A stretch of 32,000 nt of DNA. It comes from Aulosira sp. ZfuVER01 (lineage in GTDB: Bacteria; Cyanobacteriota; Cyanobacteriia; Cyanobacteriales; Nostocaceae). Positions within the stretch are counted from its first letter, which is position 1, and the number at the start of each line of letters is the position of its first letter. The notes under the pieces were generated by a model. The model ran no database searches, was not told the origin of the DNA, and worked only from the letters and a program-made list of their open reading frames with translations. Made by a program: the position numbers and the translations under genes. The stretch is taken from positions 122,559 to 154,558 of the forward strand of contig JAVRCV020000052.1 of NCBI GenBank assembly GCA_034530615.2, read 5' to 3'. Below are positions 5,842-9,934 of the stretch, in pieces.

Positions 5842-6174
5842 TCAATCCAACCTACTCATCTGCTCATTAATGGAGTTCAAAGGCTCATTAACGGAGTAAA
5901 AAGCCTCATTAACGGAGCAAAAAGCCTCGTTCACGGAGCTAAAAGCCTCATTAACGGAGCTAAAAGCCTCATTCACGGAGTAAAAAGCCTCGTTCACGGA
6001 GTAAAAAGCCTCATTAATGGAGCTAAAAGCTTCATTAACGGAGTAAAAAGCCTCATTAACGGAGCTAAAAGCCTCGTTCACGGAGTAAAAAGCCTCATTA
6101 ATGGAGCTAAAAGCCTCGTTCACGGAGTAAAAAGCCTCATTAATGGAGCTAAAAGCCTCATTAACGAATATCAA
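5842..6174 (-). CDS. Possible heptad-repeat protein (NEAF[S/Y/C]S[V/I])n encoded by the 21-bp repeat; coding status uncertain
   Basis: The minus-strand frame is open across the whole array. The position 4 and 7 polymorphisms are synonymous in this frame (AAT/AAC, GTT/GTG). Against coding, the only start after the upstream in-frame TAG (6223-6225) is a TTG at 6172-6174, and there is no ATG. Confidence 0.3.
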   Translation of the reverse strand: MIFVNEAFSSINEAFYSVNEAFSSINEAFYSVNEAFSSVNEAFYSVNEAFSSINEAFYSVNEAFYSVNEAFSSVNEAFSSVNEAFCSVNEAFYSVNEPLNSINEQMSRLD

Positions 6175-6353: not shown

Positions 6354-6809
6354 ATGGAACCAATAACCATCGGTGCGATCGCTCTTTTAACTTTAATCGG
6401 CAATAAGGTCATCGATTGGTCAACAGAAAAGGCTTTGGATGCTGGTTTAGACAAAGCCAAGCAAGTTCTTAAAGCTAAATCACCTGAAACAGCCGCCGCT
6501 TTAGAAACCGCAGCCGCACAAGCAGCCTTACCACCAGGAGAACGAGAATATATTGGTGAAGCTGTGTTGGTAGAAGAGGTAAAAAAAGCAGCAGAAGCAG
6601 ACTCGGAAATTAAGGAAGCTGTCGAAGCATTAGGAAATCAAGCCAGTACTGCTGCACAAGCTAACCCAGAACTGGCAAAGGCTATTGCAGAGTTAACCGC
6701 TGCTATTAAAGCGCAAAGTCCGACAACGGTAGAAAACTGGCAAGGTATAAATATCAAAGGTGGCGAGAATAGTATCAGTAATCCCACATTCAACTTTGGC
6801 AGCAAATGA
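6354..6809 (+). CDS. Small helical protein with an N-terminal hydrophobic helix and a C-terminal G/N/Q-rich motif shared with the adjacent NLR (Bell/HeLo-like executioner candidate)
   Basis: The N-terminus is MEPITIGAIALLTLIGNKVIDW, followed by an A/E/K-rich helical body. The C-terminus is ENWQGINIKGGENSISNPTFNFGSK. The TGA stop overlaps the ATG of the next ORF (ATGA at 6806-6809). Confidence 0.8.
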   Translation: MEPITIGAIALLTLIGNKVIDWSTEKALDAGLDKAKQVLKAKSPETAAALETAAAQAALPPGEREYIGEAVLVEEVKKAAEADSEIKEAVEALGNQASTAAQANPELAKAIAELTAAIKAQSPTTVENWQGINIKGGENSISNPTFNFGSK

Positions 6810-9800
6810 CCAACGAGAATTGGCAAGGGATAAACATTAAGGGTGGCGAGACTAACATCAACAACCCAATCATCAATTTTGGGTCATCACAACAGACTTC
6901 TCCACCAAATATCCCCAACAATTTAATTTACAAAGGCGCGGTCGAGTTTGTTGGGCGAGAAAATGAACTTACCGATATCCATCAGAAATTGCAGCAGTCG
7001 GCTAACGTAGCAATTTCGGCGGTAGCTGGGATGGGTGGTATCGGCAAAACAGAACTAGCAACCCAGTACGCATTAAGACATGAAGCTGATTATCCTGGCG
7101 GTATCTGCTGGCTAAATGCAAGAGAATCAGAATTAGCAGCTAGCATTGTGCAATTTTATCTGTTGTACATTGGTCAAGAAATCCCAAAAGAATTGGGGGG
7201 AAAACTGCTGAACCTCCAAGAACAAGTACGGTGGTGTTGGCAGCATTGGCAACCATCTGAGGGTTTGGTGTTGGTAGTATTAGATGATGTCACTAATTTA
7301 GAGAATCTGCGAGAATTACAACCAACAACCAACCGCTTCCGGGTACTCATCACCACCCGCTTACGCAATCTCAACCGCAATTTTGTCAAGGAAATTTCCT
7401 TAGATGTACTCCCGGAAATCAAAGCTTTAGAACTGCTAACAGCTTTTGTAGGTGAAAAGCGAATACAACGGGAAGAAACAACAGCTAAACAATTGTGTCA
7501 ATGGCTGGGATATTTACCCTTGGGGTTGGAATTAGTCGGACAGTATTTAGCTGAAGATCCAGATTTATCCTTAGCAGAAATGTTGGAACGGCTGAAAGTG
7601 CAACGCATAGAGGATGAAGCACTAGAACGGAGACAGCCAACCCTGAGTGCAGCACAGCTGGGAGTGAAAGCCGCCTTTGAATTAAGCTGGCGAGAACTGG
7701 ATGAAAAAACTCAGCTTGTAGGTGCGTTGTTGAGTTTATTTGCTCCTGATGTTATACCTTGGCAATTGGCAGAGGCTACCAGTGAGTTGCTGAATTGGGC
7801 AAAGGCAGATGTAACGGAAGCGAGAAAGCAACTCTACAAACGCCATCTCATTCAAAGATTAGAAGATACAAACGCTTGTTATCAAATTCATCCATTAATT
7901 CGACAATTTCTCCAAGGAAAATTTGGACAAATTCCTCTCATTACTGGCAAGGAAGAGTTAGGAATGGAATTCAAACAAGCTTTTGCAACTGCGATGGTAG
8001 CAAAGGCAAAAGAAATTCCTAAAACTCCCACCCGTGAATTTATTGAGTCAATACAAGGTACTATTCCCCATGTCCAAGAAGTTGCCCAGAACTTAATTCA
8101 TGCCGTCAAGGATGAAGATTTAACTTGGGTATTTGTTGGCTTGGGTAATTTTTATGAAGGACAGGGTTTGTATGCGTTAGCAGAACCTTGGCGTATACAA
8201 TGTTTATCAACAGTCAAAACTCGTTTGGGAGAAGAACATCCCGAAGTTGCTACCAGCCTCAACAACTTGGCTAATCTCTACGAATCCCAAGGAAATTACA
8301 CCGCAGCCGAACCCTTGTTTCAGCAAGCTTTGGCAATGAGAAAACGCCTGCTGGGAGAAGAACATCCCAACATTGCCCAAAGCCTCAACAACTTGGCTAA
8401 TGTCTACGAATCCCAAGGAAATTACACTGTAGCTAAACCCTTGTATCAGCAAGCTTTGGCAATGTATAAACGCCTGCTGGGAGATGAACATCCCCACGTC
8501 GCCACCAGCCTCAGCAACTTGGCTAATGTCTACTATTTCCAAGGAAATTATACTGTAGCTAAACCCTTGTATCAGCAAGCTTTGGCAATGAGAAAACGCC
8601 TGCTGGGAGATCAACATCCCGACATCGCCACCAGCCTCAGCAACTTGGCTAATCTCTACTATTCCCAAGGAAGGTACTCCGAAGCCGAACCTTTGCATCA
8701 GCAAGCTTTGGCAATGAGAAAACGCCTGCTGGGAGATCAACATCCCGACACCGCTACAAGCCTTATCGACTTGGCTGATCTCTACTCTTCCCAAGGAAAT
8801 TACACCGCAGCCGAACCCTTGTATCAGCAAGCTTTGGCAATGCATAAACATCTGCTGGGAGATGAACATCCCCACGTCGCCATTAGCCTCAACAGCTTGG
8901 CTAATCTCTACTCTTCCCAAGGAAATTACACCGCAGCCGAACCCTTGTATCAGCAAGCTTTGGCAATGCATAAACATCTGCTGGGAGATGAACATCCCCG
9001 AGTCGCCACCAGCCTCAACAACTTGGCTAATCTCTACTATTCCCAAGGAAGGTATGCCGATGCCGAACCCTTATATCAGCAAGCTTTGGCAATGAGAAAA
9101 CGGCTGCTGGGAAATGAACATCCCCGAGTCGCCACCAGCCTCAACAACTTGGCTAATCTCTACAAATCCCAAGGAAATTACACCGCAGCTGAACCTTTGT
9201 ATCTGCAAGCTTTGGCAATGAGTAAACGCCTGCTGGGAGATGAACATCCCGATGTTGCCGCCAGCCTCAACAACTTGGCTTTACTCTACTCTTCCCAAGG
9301 AAATTACACCGCAGCCGAACCCTTGTATCAGCAAGCTTTGGCAATGCATAAACATCTGCTGGGAGATGAACATCCCCACGTCGCCATCAGCCTTAATAAC
9401 TTGGCTTTACTCTACTCTTCCCAAGGAAATTACACCGCAGCTGAACCTTTGTATCTGCAAGCTTTGGCAATGAGTAAACGCCTGCTGGGAGATGAACATC
9501 CCGACATCGCCACCAGCCTTAACAACTTGGCTTATCTCTACTCTTCCCAAGGAAATTACACCGCAGCTGAACCTTTGTATCTGCAAGCTTTGGCAATGAG
9601 TAAACGCCTGCTGGGAGATGAACATCCCGATGTTGCCGCCAGCCTCAACAACTTGGCTTTACTCTACTCTTCCCAAGGAAATTACACCGCAGCCGAACCC
9701 TTGTATCAGCAAGCTTTGGCAATGCATAAACATCTGCTGGGAGATGAACATCCCCACGTCGCCATCAGCCTCAACGACTTGGCTTTACTCTACTATTCCC

Positions 9801-9934
9801 AAGGAAATTACGCCGCCGCCGCACCCTTGTATCTGCAAGCTTTGGCAATTTTTGAGCAAAAATTAGGTGTCGATCATCCTCGTACAGTTAAGTGTCGTCA
9901 AAATCTTGAACTTCTTCATGCTGCTAACTCTTAA
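6806..9934 (+). CDS. NLR-like STAND ATPase: N-terminal short signalling motif + NB-ARC + TPR array
   Basis: Residues 4-27 are ENWQGINIKGGETNINNPIINFGS. NB-ARC motifs are present: P-loop GMGGIGKT (7028-7051), Walker B LVLVVLDDV, RVLITTR, GYLPLGLELVG (GLPL-like) and YQIHPLIRQF (MHD-like). These are followed by 13 full 42-aa TPR units plus a C-terminal cap. Confidence 0.92.
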   Translation: MTNENWQGINIKGGETNINNPIINFGSSQQTSPPNIPNNLIYKGAVEFVGRENELTDIHQKLQQSANVAISAVAGMGGIGKTELATQYALRHEADYPGGICWLNARESELAASIVQFYLLYIGQEIPKELGGKLLNLQEQVRWCWQHWQPSEGLVLVVLDDVTNLENLRELQPTTNRFRVLITTRLRNLNRNFVKEISLDVLPEIKALELLTAFVGEKRIQREETTAKQLCQWLGYLPLGLELVGQYLAEDPDLSLAEMLERLKVQRIEDEALERRQPTLSAAQLGVKAAFELSWRELDEKTQLVGALLSLFAPDVIPWQLAEATSELLNWAKADVTEARKQLYKRHLIQRLEDTNACYQIHPLIRQFLQGKFGQIPLITGKEELGMEFKQAFATAMVAKAKEIPKTPTREFIESIQGTIPHVQEVAQNLIHAVKDEDLTWVFVGLGNFYEGQGLYALAEPWRIQCLSTVKTRLGEEHPEVATSLNNLANLYESQGNYTAAEPLFQQALAMRKRLLGEEHPNIAQSLNNLANVYESQGNYTVAKPLYQQALAMYKRLLGDEHPHVATSLSNLANVYYFQGNYTVAKPLYQQALAMRKRLLGDQHPDIATSLSNLANLYYSQGRYSEAEPLHQQALAMRKRLLGDQHPDTATSLIDLADLYSSQGNYTAAEPLYQQALAMHKHLLGDEHPHVAISLNSLANLYSSQGNYTAAEPLYQQALAMHKHLLGDEHPRVATSLNNLANLYYSQGRYADAEPLYQQALAMRKRLLGNEHPRVATSLNNLANLYKSQGNYTAAEPLYLQALAMSKRLLGDEHPDVAASLNNLALLYSSQGNYTAAEPLYQQALAMHKHLLGDEHPHVAISLNNLALLYSSQGNYTAAEPLYLQALAMSKRLLGDEHPDIATSLNNLAYLYSSQGNYTAAEPLYLQALAMSKRLLGDEHPDVAASLNNLALLYSSQGNYTAAEPLYQQALAMHKHLLGDEHPHVAISLNDLALLYYSQGNYAAAAPLYLQALAIFEQKLGVDHPRTVKCRQNLELLHAANS
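8140..9900 (+). repeat. 126-bp tandem array encoding the TPR units of the NLR (approximate bounds)
   Basis: The period is exactly 126 bp; for example the CAT of the HP dipeptide falls at 8237 and at 8363. Positions 9167-9393 are identical base for base to 9545-9771, a 227-bp match at an offset of 378 bp (3 units). Confidence 0.9.

What the first reader, a model, noticed from the sequence alone, without database searches (positions are those of the whole stretch)
6354..6809. The 151-aa partner protein looks like a trans-acting membrane executioner (Bell/HeLo-like)
The protein starts with a hydrophobic helix (MEPITIGAIALLTLIGNKVIDW). An A/E/K-rich, apparently all-helical body of about 100 aa follows, then the shared motif. 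It has no catalytic signature.

In described amyloid-signalling pairs, the small partner carries a membrane-targeting domain (HeLo in fungi, Bell in bacteria). Its N-terminal helix is released when the C-terminal motif is templated by the activated NLR. The ATGA stop/start overlap at 6806-6809 implies co-translation with the NLR.

If this reading is right, the module is an abortive-infection or programmed-cell-death device in a multicellular cyanobacterium.
Basis: inference. Interest (0 to 1): 0.8.

Follow-up and report, generated by a model that had tools for sequence, protein, structure and literature searches.

The report
Known Bell/BASS7 partner of a cyanobacterial NLR

Summary
ORF 6354-6809 (+) encodes a 151-aa protein. 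It has an MEPIT-plus-hydrophobic N-terminal helix, an Ala/Glu/Lys-rich helical body and a 24-residue tail motif. That motif recurs (19/24 identical) at residues 4-27 of the NB-ARC/TPR protein, which starts in the ATGA overlap at 6806.

The motif is BASS7 of Dyrka et al. 2020. The syntenic orthologue in Nostoc sp. 106C (OUL32057.1, 87% identical) is listed in that paper's table of Bell/NLR amyloid-signalling pairs, so the kind is already known.

Evidence found here:
- The two motif copies co-vary across 19 loci.
- They differ at synonymous sites, so selection acts on the protein.
- The pair moves as a unit between genomic contexts.
- The same body carries several other tail motifs and is once fused directly to a NACHT NTPase.

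Membrane killing remains inferred, from E. coli Bab/Agp and fungal HET-S. Structure prediction was only moderately confident and matched no solved fold.

A side finding in related loci, not in this window, may be new. In 16 loci the Bell gene ends in a TGA in frame with an NLR that lacks its own motif and has no conserved canonical start codon. A covarying hairpin lies 8 nt downstream. This suggests programmed read-through.

The parts
6354..6809 (+). Gene for the 151-aa Bell-domain/BASS7 protein (stop codon included)
   Evidence: ORF. The protein is identical to MDZ8050969.1 of Aulosira sp. ZfuVER01. The orthologue OUL32057.1 is listed as a Bell/BASS7 protein.
6354..6419 (+). N-terminal MEPIT motif plus short hydrophobic helix (residues 1-22). 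This is the putative membrane-inserting or pore-lining helix.
   Evidence: M1, P3, T5, G7, A8, I9 and K18 are at least 90% conserved; position 2 is E or D in 33/34 sequences. AF2 predicts a helix at 3-15. It matches the 'MEPIS' region described in 10.1101/2024.11.07.622273.
6354..6719 (+). Globular all-helical domain (residues 1-122)
   Evidence: AF2 predicts six helices, with pLDDT 70-89 over most of the domain. A body-only profile recovers 211 clusters, nearly all 110-170 aa with the domain at the N-terminus.
6732..6803 (+). C-terminal BASS7 motif ENWQGINIKGGENSISNPTFNFGS (residues 127-150)
   Evidence: Matches the bass_07 rows of Table S2. Disordered in the AF2 monomer models. Co-varies with the NLR copy.
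6806..6809 (+). ATGA stop/start overlap between the two genes
   Evidence: Gene overlaps occur in 42% of collinear Bell/NLR pairs according to Dyrka et al..
6806..9934 (+). Partner gene: 1042-aa NLR-like NB-ARC/TPR protein
   Evidence: Pfam NB-ARC (2.1e-15) and TPR_12 (14 stretches). The P-loop GMGGIGKT lies at nt 7028-7051.
6815..6886 (+). N-terminal BASS7 copy of the NLR, ENWQGINIKGGETNINNPIINFGS (residues 4-27)
   Evidence: 19/24 identical to the Bell copy, with 11 synonymous codon differences. Co-variation across 19 loci.
6959..7612 (+). NB-ARC NTPase domain of the NLR (residues 52-269)
8226..9849 (+). TPR sensor region encoded by a 126-bp tandem array (12.9 copies, 88% matches)

Best explanation
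The gene encodes the effector half of a two-gene NLR/amyloid-signalling module of the Bell/BASS7 type.

Shown here:
- The 151-aa protein belongs to a Nostocales-centred family of about 110-170-aa proteins.
- Each has a conserved M-[ED]-P-[IL]-T hydrophobic N-terminal helix, a roughly 100-residue helical domain, and a disordered C-terminal motif of about 25 residues.
- In this locus and at least 18 others, that motif is repeated at the extreme N-terminus of the NLR-like NTPase encoded immediately downstream. Here the two genes are translationally coupled through ATGA.

Inferred from the fungal HET-S/NWD2 system and from E. coli Bab/Agp:
1. The TPR array of the NLR senses a trigger, possibly phage-derived, and the NB-ARC domain oligomerises.
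2. This brings the N-terminal BASS7 copies together so that they adopt a cross-beta fold.
3. That fold templates the BASS7 tail of the soluble small protein.
4. Refolding of the tail loosens the helical bundle and frees helix 1.
5. Helix 1 inserts into the cytoplasmic membrane and kills or disables the cell. This would amount to abortive infection or regulated cell death within a filament.
For: Family membership:
- The motif equals BASS7. The syntenic orthologue OUL32057.1 (P0005, 87% identical) and OYE01691.1 (in the 90% cluster of P0015, which is 56% identical to the query) are in the published table of Bell/NLR pairs.

N-terminus:
- The acidic residue at position 2 and the hydrophobic helix are the most conserved part of the protein. 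Dyrka et al. describe the same for Bell and Ibarlosa et al. for the MEPIS region, where G11K in helix 1 of Bab abolishes defence.

Fold:
- Helical domain plus disordered tail in two AF2 runs.

Coupling of the two motif copies:
- Across 19 loci, identity to the own partner is 16.6/24 against 13.9/24 for non-partners. No permutation out of 100,000 reached the observed value.
- Columns 7, 15 and 18 are identical on both sides in 19/19 loci although they vary between loci. Column 18 is P, S or N.
- Within the window, the copies differ at 11 synonymous sites, so the protein sequence is what is conserved.

The pair is a unit:
- Flanking genes are shared only with Nostoc sp. 106C and Aulosira sp. DedQUE10. 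Loci with 84-88% identical Bell genes lie elsewhere but keep the NLR.

Effector position and modularity:
- The body-only profile hits a 909-aa protein in which the domain is fused N-terminally to a NACHT NTPase.
- The same body carries at least five different tail motifs.

Experimental precedent for the class:
- Bab/Agp is toxic only when both motif copies are intact. Bab moves to the cell periphery on infection.
Against: - No cyanobacterial Bell protein and no BASS7 motif has been tested. Dyrka et al. tested BASS1 and BASS3 only.
- The AF2 models are moderate (mean pLDDT 70 and 65). No coordinates were available to check that helix 1 is buried.
- Foldseek found no significant match in the PDB, best E = 0.9. 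No sequence relative has a solved structure.
- I could not compare directly with the founding Bell sequence or with Bab.
- Pfam, NCBIfam and PADLOC gave no significant match for the small protein.
- The neighbourhood is housekeeping (ClpP, DnaJ, PaO, ThiS, TldD), not a defence island.
- The hydrophobic stretch could in principle be a constitutive membrane anchor.
Confidence: 0.7

Rival explanations
1. The small protein is a non-lytic regulator or adaptor. It could be a cap that binds the NLR's N-terminal motif and holds the receptor inactive, or a scaffold that merely reports NLR activation. The lethal or defensive output would then lie elsewhere.
For: The motif pairing and co-variation show interaction between the two proteins, not killing. 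No catalytic or toxin family matches. The locus is among housekeeping genes.
Against: The most conserved part of the protein is the N-terminal MEPIT/hydrophobic helix, not the motif. A pure cap would need only the motif. The domain occupies the effector position in a Bell-NACHT fusion. The NB-ARC/TPR partner has no other effector domain. Bab, the tested relative of the class, is the killer.
Confidence: 0.15
2. The N-terminal hydrophobic helix is a constitutive membrane anchor. The protein would then be a resident membrane tether that recruits the activated NLR to the membrane through the shared motif.
For: There is one strongly hydrophobic N-terminal segment and the rest is hydrophilic. Some JGI entries for homologues are auto-named 'uncharacterized membrane protein'.
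Against: The uncharged stretch is only about 14-15 residues (P3 to N17, bounded by E2 and K18), short for a bilayer span. The crystal structure of Bab and the AF models of Bell domains in Ibarlosa et al. show helix 1 cupped by four helices in a soluble protein.
Confidence: 0.08
3. It is a phasin- or apolipophorin-like amphipathic-helix protein that coats lipid or polymer granules, and its adjacency to the NLR is incidental.
For: Weak Pfam matches: Phasin_2 at 17.6 bits and ApoLp-III at 15 bits.
Against: Both are below the curated cut-offs (24.9 and 36.3 bits). They are seen in only 2 and 4 of 110 family members, as expected for Ala/Glu/Lys-rich helices. No structural match was found. In all but one of the related loci examined the gene was followed by the matching motif or an in-frame NTPase ORF.
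Confidence: 0.02

Closest known systems
Bell-domain/BASS7-NLR gene pairs of filamentous cyanobacteria (Dyrka et al. 2020, bioRxiv 10.1101/2020.01.06.895854), e.g. OUL32057.1/OUL32058.1 of Nostoc sp. 106C
   Same: Same protein family (87% identity) and same flanking genes (ClpP, DnaJ, PaO, ThiS ... TldD). Same overlapping gene arrangement and the same motif family at the same two termini.
   Different: In the 106C pair both motif copies have drifted together (QGVITTGGQTTVKGSTFNFGS / QGIITQGGKVIVQDSTFNFGS). Its NLR is 252 aa shorter, which is six 42-residue TPR units.
Bab/Agp antiphage system of E. coli ECOR25 (Ibarlosa et al. 2024, bioRxiv 10.1101/2024.11.07.622273)
   Same: A small helical protein with a conserved MEPIS-type N-terminal hydrophobic helix and a C-terminal amyloid motif. 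The motif is repeated at the N-terminus of the adjacent TPR-containing sensor. The demonstrated mechanism is the one inferred here.
   Different: Bab has a shorter domain ('Babybell', about 80 aa), and its motif is BASS11 rather than BASS7. [quoted passage not shown] No sequence-level match was found here.
HET-S/NWD2 of Podospora anserina (HeLo domain plus HRAM prion-forming motif; established knowledge, summarised)
   Same: The same logic: NLR N-terminal motif, amyloid templating of the effector's C-terminal motif, release of an N-terminal helix, membrane damage.
   Different: A different kingdom. No HeLo or Helo-like Pfam match. HET-S has two pseudo-repeats of its motif, whereas this protein has one.
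Four-helix-bundle and coiled-coil executioner domains of MLKL and plant CC-NLRs (ZAR1, Rx)
   Same: An N-terminal helix with an acidic residue near its start, tucked into a helical bundle and released on activation. Dyrka et al. and Ibarlosa et al. draw this parallel.
   Different: Those domains are fused to their kinase or NLR and do not use amyloid templating. The Rx-CC and Bcl-xL entries in my Foldseek list were not significant (E = 2.6-9, TM at most 0.27).

Membership tests
Bell domain (Dyrka et al. 2020) | Short protein (about 120-140 aa) whose N-terminus is a predicted hydrophobic alpha-helix with an acidic residue at position 2 or 3 | tested here: met
   151 aa. E2 (E or D in 33/34 homologues). 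Hydrophobic helix at 3-15. Definition.
Bell domain (Dyrka et al. 2020) | [quoted passage not shown] | tested here: inconclusive
   AF2 gives six helices over residues 3-121 with mean pLDDT 70 and 65. Packing of helix 1 could not be inspected. Foldseek found no significant PDB match.
Bell domain (Dyrka et al. 2020) | HMMER-detectable homology to the founding Bell domain (ONI86675.1); that is, inclusion in the authors' Bell set | tested here: met
   Tested indirectly. The 87%-identical syntenic orthologue OUL32057.1 and family member OYE01691.1 are in Table S2, which lists only Bell-set proteins. A direct comparison with ONI86675.1 was not possible.
Bell domain (Dyrka et al. 2020) | Encoded next to, and collinear with, an NB-ARC/NACHT NLR-like gene, often overlapping it | tested here: met
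   ATGA overlap with an NB-ARC/TPR gene. The same applies in related loci.
Bell domain (Dyrka et al. 2020) | Membrane-targeting, cell-death-inducing activity | not testable with these tools
   Shown only for Bab in E. coli. Not shown for any cyanobacterial Bell protein.
BASS7 amyloid signalling motif | Motif of about 25 residues of the form ENWQGINIKGGxNTIxxNTFNF at the C-terminus of the effector and the N-terminus of the adjacent NLR | tested here: met
   Both copies align without gaps to the bass_07 rows of Table S2. 19/24 identity between the copies.
BASS7 amyloid signalling motif | Forms amyloid fibrils or prions, and the NLR-side copy seeds the effector-side copy | not testable with these tools
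   Only BASS1, BASS3 and BASS11 have been tested experimentally. Here the only support is disorder in the monomer models and co-variation.
HeLo / Helo-like (fungal) domains | Match to the Pfam HeLo or Helo_like_N models | tested here: not met
   No such hit at E <= 1. The resemblance is functional and architectural only.
Phasin_2 (PF09361) | Score at or above the gathering threshold of 24.9 bits | tested here: not met
   17.6 bits over 35 residues. Only 2 of 110 family members hit at E <= 0.01.
Babybell (Bab) domain | [quoted passage not shown] | tested here: not met
   The domain is about 120 aa, the tail is BASS7 and the partner is NB-ARC/TPR. No PDB sequence hit.

The most novel reading that the evidence does not exclude
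The window's two-gene layout has a duplicated BASS7 motif and an ATGA overlap. It may be one of two interchangeable expression designs of the same Bell-NLR module.

In 16 related loci, including the finished genome of Cylindrospermum stagnale PCC 7417, the second design appears:
- The Bell-motif ORF ends in TGA (13 TGAC, 3 TGAA) that is in frame with the NLR.
- The NLR has no motif copy of its own.
- The NLR has no conserved canonical start codon. In 15 of the 16 loci the first ATG/GTG/TTG lies after the conserved FVGR motif.
- A 5-bp hairpin 8 nt after the UGA is kept by compensatory changes.

The reading not excluded is programmed UGA read-through. This would give an abundant short effector (Bell-BASS) and a rare long sensor (Bell-BASS-NLR) from a single motif copy. 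That would be a recoding-based way to set effector:sensor stoichiometry in a bacterial amyloid signalosome.

The evidence comes from related loci, not from the window itself. I found no mention of it in the papers searched.
Probability: 0.4. Interest if true: 0.8.

Novelty: already known. Interest (0 to 1): 0.3.

Why it matters
The locus is one more instance of a catalogued prokaryotic NLR/amyloid-signalling pair, so on its own it adds little. It does support the view that filamentous cyanobacteria carry HET-S-like cell-death modules that nobody has yet tested experimentally.

Two results from this check are useful for anyone who wants to test them:
- There is clean co-variation of the two BASS7 copies across loci. 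Column 18 is P, S or N and always matches between partners. This pinpoints specificity positions for cross-seeding experiments.
- Many relatives replace the duplicated motif by an in-frame UGA plus a hairpin. If that is programmed read-through, it would link the 'all-in-one' and 'two-component' NLR architectures. It would also explain why many Bell proteins appear to have orphan motifs in paired-motif screens.

Tried and rejected
- **Family libraries.** Pfam, NCBIfam and PADLOC scans of the small protein gave only sub-threshold noise such as Phasin_2, ApoLp-III, OspC and StbC. A scan of all 110 aligned members showed these are sporadic. EAD11 was hit by 2 of 110 at E = 7e-4 and was not pursued.
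- **Solved structures by sequence.** Searches with the full and the body-only profile returned nothing below E = 0.08. Bab did not appear.
- **Solved structures by fold.** Foldseek of the better AF2 model against the PDB gave a best E of 0.9. The Bcl-xL and Rx-CC entries are not significant.
- **Deeper alignment.** A 110-sequence alignment did not improve the model: pLDDT 65 against 70.
- **Variant C-termini.** I first suspected that the variant tails of some homologues (for example KADTIGIE...IIIHE in Gloeotrichia) were frameshifts or insertions of a short mobile repeat. I dropped this when the same tails proved to be conserved motif families and the downstream 'repeat' proved to be an in-frame, conserved junction.
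- **Pseudoknot.** Pairing of the hairpin-loop GGG with the downstream CCC run is possible but invariant, so it is unsupported by co-variation. Single-sequence folding of the junction is not distinctive. Rfam has no match.
- **Metagenome scan.** The scan with the wide alignment failed and the narrower one gave only 7 loci.
- **Literature.** Searches for read-through in this context found nothing relevant.

Full report
**What is in the sequence**

Its TGA stop (6807-6809) overlaps the ATG (6806-6808) of a 1042-codon ORF. Pfam identifies that ORF as an NB-ARC NTPase (residues 52-269) followed by 14 TPR units, which is an NLR-like architecture.

The small protein has a single strongly hydrophobic segment at residues 3-16, bounded by E2 and K18. 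Its body is 25% Ala, 12% Glu and 9% Lys. Its 29-residue tail is rich in Asn, Gly, Ser and Thr.

The tail motif ENWQGINIKGGENSISNPTFNFGS (residues 127-150) recurs as ENWQGINIKGGETNINNPIINFGS at residues 4-27 of the NLR. That is 19 of 24 identical residues. At the DNA level only 51 of 72 bases agree, and 11 of the 19 conserved residues use different codons. The resemblance is therefore maintained on the protein, not produced by a recent DNA duplication or by gene conversion.

The protein is identical to database entries from Aulosira sp. ZfuVER01, so the window comes from a heterocystous, filamentous cyanobacterium or a very close relative.

**What it is**

Pfam, NCBIfam and PADLOC gave no significant match for the small protein, but the literature does describe it. 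Dyrka et al. 2020 (bioRxiv 10.1101/2020.01.06.895854) defined the Bell domain as follows:
- proteins of about 120-140 aa;
- an N-terminal hydrophobic helix with an acidic residue at position 2 or 3;
- a C-terminal motif shared with the N-terminus of an adjacent NB-ARC/NACHT protein.

They also defined ten families of such motifs (BASS1-10). Their Table S2 lists the present motif as BASS7. It includes the pair OUL32057.1/OUL32058.1 of Nostoc sp. 106C and the pair OYE01691.1/OYE01692.1.

Exact-sequence look-up shows that OUL32057.1 is my hit P0005, 87% identical to the window protein. OYE01691.1 sits in the cluster of P0015, at 56% identity. The 106C locus has the same neighbours as the window: ClpP, ClpP, DnaJ, PaO/Rieske, ThiS, a 138-aa ORF, then Bell, NLR and TldD. 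It is therefore the orthologous locus, and the kind of system is already catalogued, down to the orthologous pair.

Ibarlosa et al. 2024 (bioRxiv 10.1101/2024.11.07.622273) add that the first 15 or so residues, the 'MEPIS' motif, are shared by Bell, fungal Hell, Bab and several antiphage NLRs. The window protein starts MEPIT. In the family alignment M1, P3, T5, G7, A8, I9 and K18 are at least 90% conserved, and position 2 is E or D in 33 of 34 sequences.

**Independent evidence gathered here**

- *Structure.* Two AlphaFold2 runs, with 34 and 110 aligned sequences, agree on helices 3-15, 26-42, 44-57, 69-82, 84-103 and 105-121 and on a disordered tail from residue 122. Confidence is only moderate, with mean pLDDT 70 and 65. 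Foldseek against the PDB found nothing significant (best E = 0.9). Bcl-xL and the Rx coiled-coil appear among the non-significant rows, and no phasin or other structural family appears. Profile searches of PDB sequences were also empty. Ibarlosa et al. note large topological variation among Bell folds, so this negative result is weak evidence either way.
- *Family size.* A profile of the body alone (residues 1-122, motif removed) finds 211 clusters at 50% identity with E <= 0.001 among 1.84 billion representatives. Nearly all are 110-170 aa with the domain at the extreme N-terminus. The members with a named source are mostly cyanobacteria, plus one Chloroflexaceae member.
- *Effector position.* One hit (P0278, 909 aa) has the domain fused directly to a NACHT NTPase. 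This is the 'all-in-one' arrangement in which effector domains sit.
- *Modularity.* The same body is found with at least five other tails. Examples are ...EKVVNLAQGI..SINIQNQTVNL and ...KIAEKIGI..VYQT..GNIIIHE. Some resemble BASS5 rows of Table S2.
- *Co-variation of the two copies.* In 19 loci where both copies are present, each Bell motif matches its own NLR better than other NLRs: 16.6 against 13.9 identities out of 24. No partner shuffle out of 100,000 reached the observed total. Three variable columns are identical on both sides in all 19 loci, and column 18 takes three states (P, S, N) always in step. The loci are related, so the number of independent events is smaller than 19, but several double changes are needed.
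- *The pair travels as a unit.* Only Nostoc sp. 106C and Aulosira sp. DedQUE10 share the window's flanks. Loci with 84-88% identical Bell genes lie in other contexts yet keep the NLR with its matching motif.

**How it most likely works**

The steps shown are the family membership, the architecture, the coupling of the two genes and the co-evolution of the two motif copies. The remaining steps are inferred from HET-S/NWD2 and from Bab/Agp:
1. The TPR array senses a trigger and NB-ARC oligomerises.
2. The clustered N-terminal BASS7 copies adopt a cross-beta fold.
3. That fold templates the tail of the small protein.
4. The helical bundle loosens and helix 1 inserts into the membrane.

In Bab/Agp, toxicity needs both proteins and both motifs. 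Beta-breaker mutations abolish it, G11K in helix 1 abolishes defence, and Bab moves to the cell periphery on infection. No cyanobacterial Bell protein and no BASS7 motif has been tested. I therefore put 0.7 on the full mechanism, although membership of the family is close to certain.

The rivals are a non-lytic cap or adaptor, a constitutive membrane anchor, and a phasin-like coat protein. Their weights are given in the Rival explanations section of this report. The phasin idea is effectively excluded.

- The ATGA overlap argues for translational coupling rather than co-translation.
- 'HeLo-like' is an analogy. No HeLo model matches.
- The locus is surrounded by housekeeping genes rather than defence genes.

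**A side finding in related loci**

While checking whether homologues with other tails also have a matching NLR, I found a second architecture. It occurs in 16 loci: L001, L003, L005, L026, L027, L029-L034, L036, L042, L043, L045 and L046. These include the finished genome of Cylindrospermum stagnale PCC 7417. Their shared features are:
- The Bell-motif ORF ends in TGA, as TGAC in 13 loci and TGAA in 3.
- The TGA is in frame with the downstream NB-ARC or NACHT ORF.
- The NLR has no motif copy of its own. It continues straight after the stop as L-Q-S/P-P-E-R-E-R-V-K-L-N-P-P...FVGR.
- In 15 of the 16 loci the first in-frame ATG, GTG or TTG lies after the conserved FVGR motif, 29-52 codons downstream and often inside the P-loop. 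In the one case I checked (L042), the public gene call starts at a non-canonical ATT codon; the L003 call also translates from Ile.

Eight nucleotides after the UGA lies a 5-bp hairpin:
- It is paired in 75 of 75 cells of a 15-sequence alignment.
- Three of its five pairs show compensatory double changes: GCCCG/CGGGU, GUCGG/CCGAC, GUCUG/CGGAC and GUCCU/AGGAC.
- Controls with the partner slid by 1-3 columns pair in at most 43% of cells.
- RNAalifold predicts the same helix.
- In the divergent loci the encoded peptide changes while the helix is kept.

A stop codon, a short spacer and a structured element is the classical layout of read-through signals, as in the MuLV gag-pol junction. UGA-C is the weakest termination context in E. 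coli. Both statements are from my own knowledge and were not tested here.

The simplest reading is programmed read-through, giving an abundant Bell-BASS and a rare Bell-BASS-NLR from one motif copy. The alternatives are selenocysteine insertion and non-AUG re-initiation. I believe cyanobacteria generally lack the selenocysteine machinery, but I could not check this.

The type-B proteins AFZ25224.1 and PSB27295.1 are absent from Table S2, as expected for a screen that requires two motif copies. I found no mention of this arrangement in the two key papers or in full-text searches.

The window locus is not of this type.

**Verdict**

Interest in the finding itself is low to moderate. The in-frame-UGA architecture in sister loci is the item worth following up.

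Noticed in passing
Related loci, not the window: L042:4379-4420 (Cylindrospermum stagnale PCC 7417); also L001, L003, L005, L026, L027, L029-L034, L036, L043, L045, L046: The Bell-motif ORF ends in TGA (13 TGAC, 3 TGAA) in frame with an NB-ARC/NACHT ORF that lacks its own motif and has no conserved canonical start codon. A 5-bp hairpin 8 nt downstream is fully paired in all 15 aligned sequences, with compensatory changes in 3 of its 5 pairs. This suggests programmed UGA read-through producing Bell-BASS and Bell-BASS-NLR.
   Followed up: partly
window 5863-6166: A 21-bp tandem repeat (14.5 copies, 83% matches; also read as a 42-bp unit) lies between the 138-aa ORF and the Bell gene. On the minus strand it reads as a NEAF(S/Y)S(V/I) heptad ORF of 110 aa (5842-6174). 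Its function is unknown. I did not check whether it contains the promoter of the pair.
   Followed up: no
window 8226-9849: The TPR region of the NLR is a 126-bp tandem array (12.9 copies, 88% identical). The orthologous NLR of Nostoc sp. 106C is 790 aa against 1042 aa, a difference of 252 aa or exactly six 42-residue units. Repeat number therefore varies between orthologues, as in fungal NLRs with highly similar repeats.
   Followed up: partly
Family alignment A1 and proteins P0141-P0280: The same Bell-type body is combined with at least five different C-terminal motifs: BASS7, BASS5-like KLAEKIG...NIQNQ, EKIYGNIQGS.IESLTQNF, KIAEKIGI..VYQT..IIIHE and NNTGNVAVGGSVSIQAETFHQTF. This shows motif shuffling on a constant effector domain.
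   Followed up: partly
Loci L009, L010, L012, L013, L014 versus window, L008, L011: Bell genes 84-88% identical to the window's keep their NLR partner but sit in different genomic neighbourhoods. Only Nostoc sp. 106C and Aulosira sp. DedQUE10 share the ClpP...TldD flanks. The pair behaves as a mobile two-gene cassette, though no mobility genes were seen in the window.
   Followed up: partly
P0278 (909 aa) and P0224 (412 aa), metagenomic proteins: The Bell-like domain also occurs fused to other modules. In P0278 it is N-terminal to a NACHT NTPase, with a BASS-like stretch (KIGTQIINNIQLHQ) between the two. In P0224 it is followed by an N/G-rich stretch, a hydrophobic segment and a GUN4 domain.
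   Followed up: no
Alignment A3 (110 family members): Two members give weak Pfam matches to EAD11 (Effector-associated domain 11; best E = 7e-4). This could hint at a link to the adaptor domains described for NTP-dependent conflict systems, or it could be noise.
   Followed up: no
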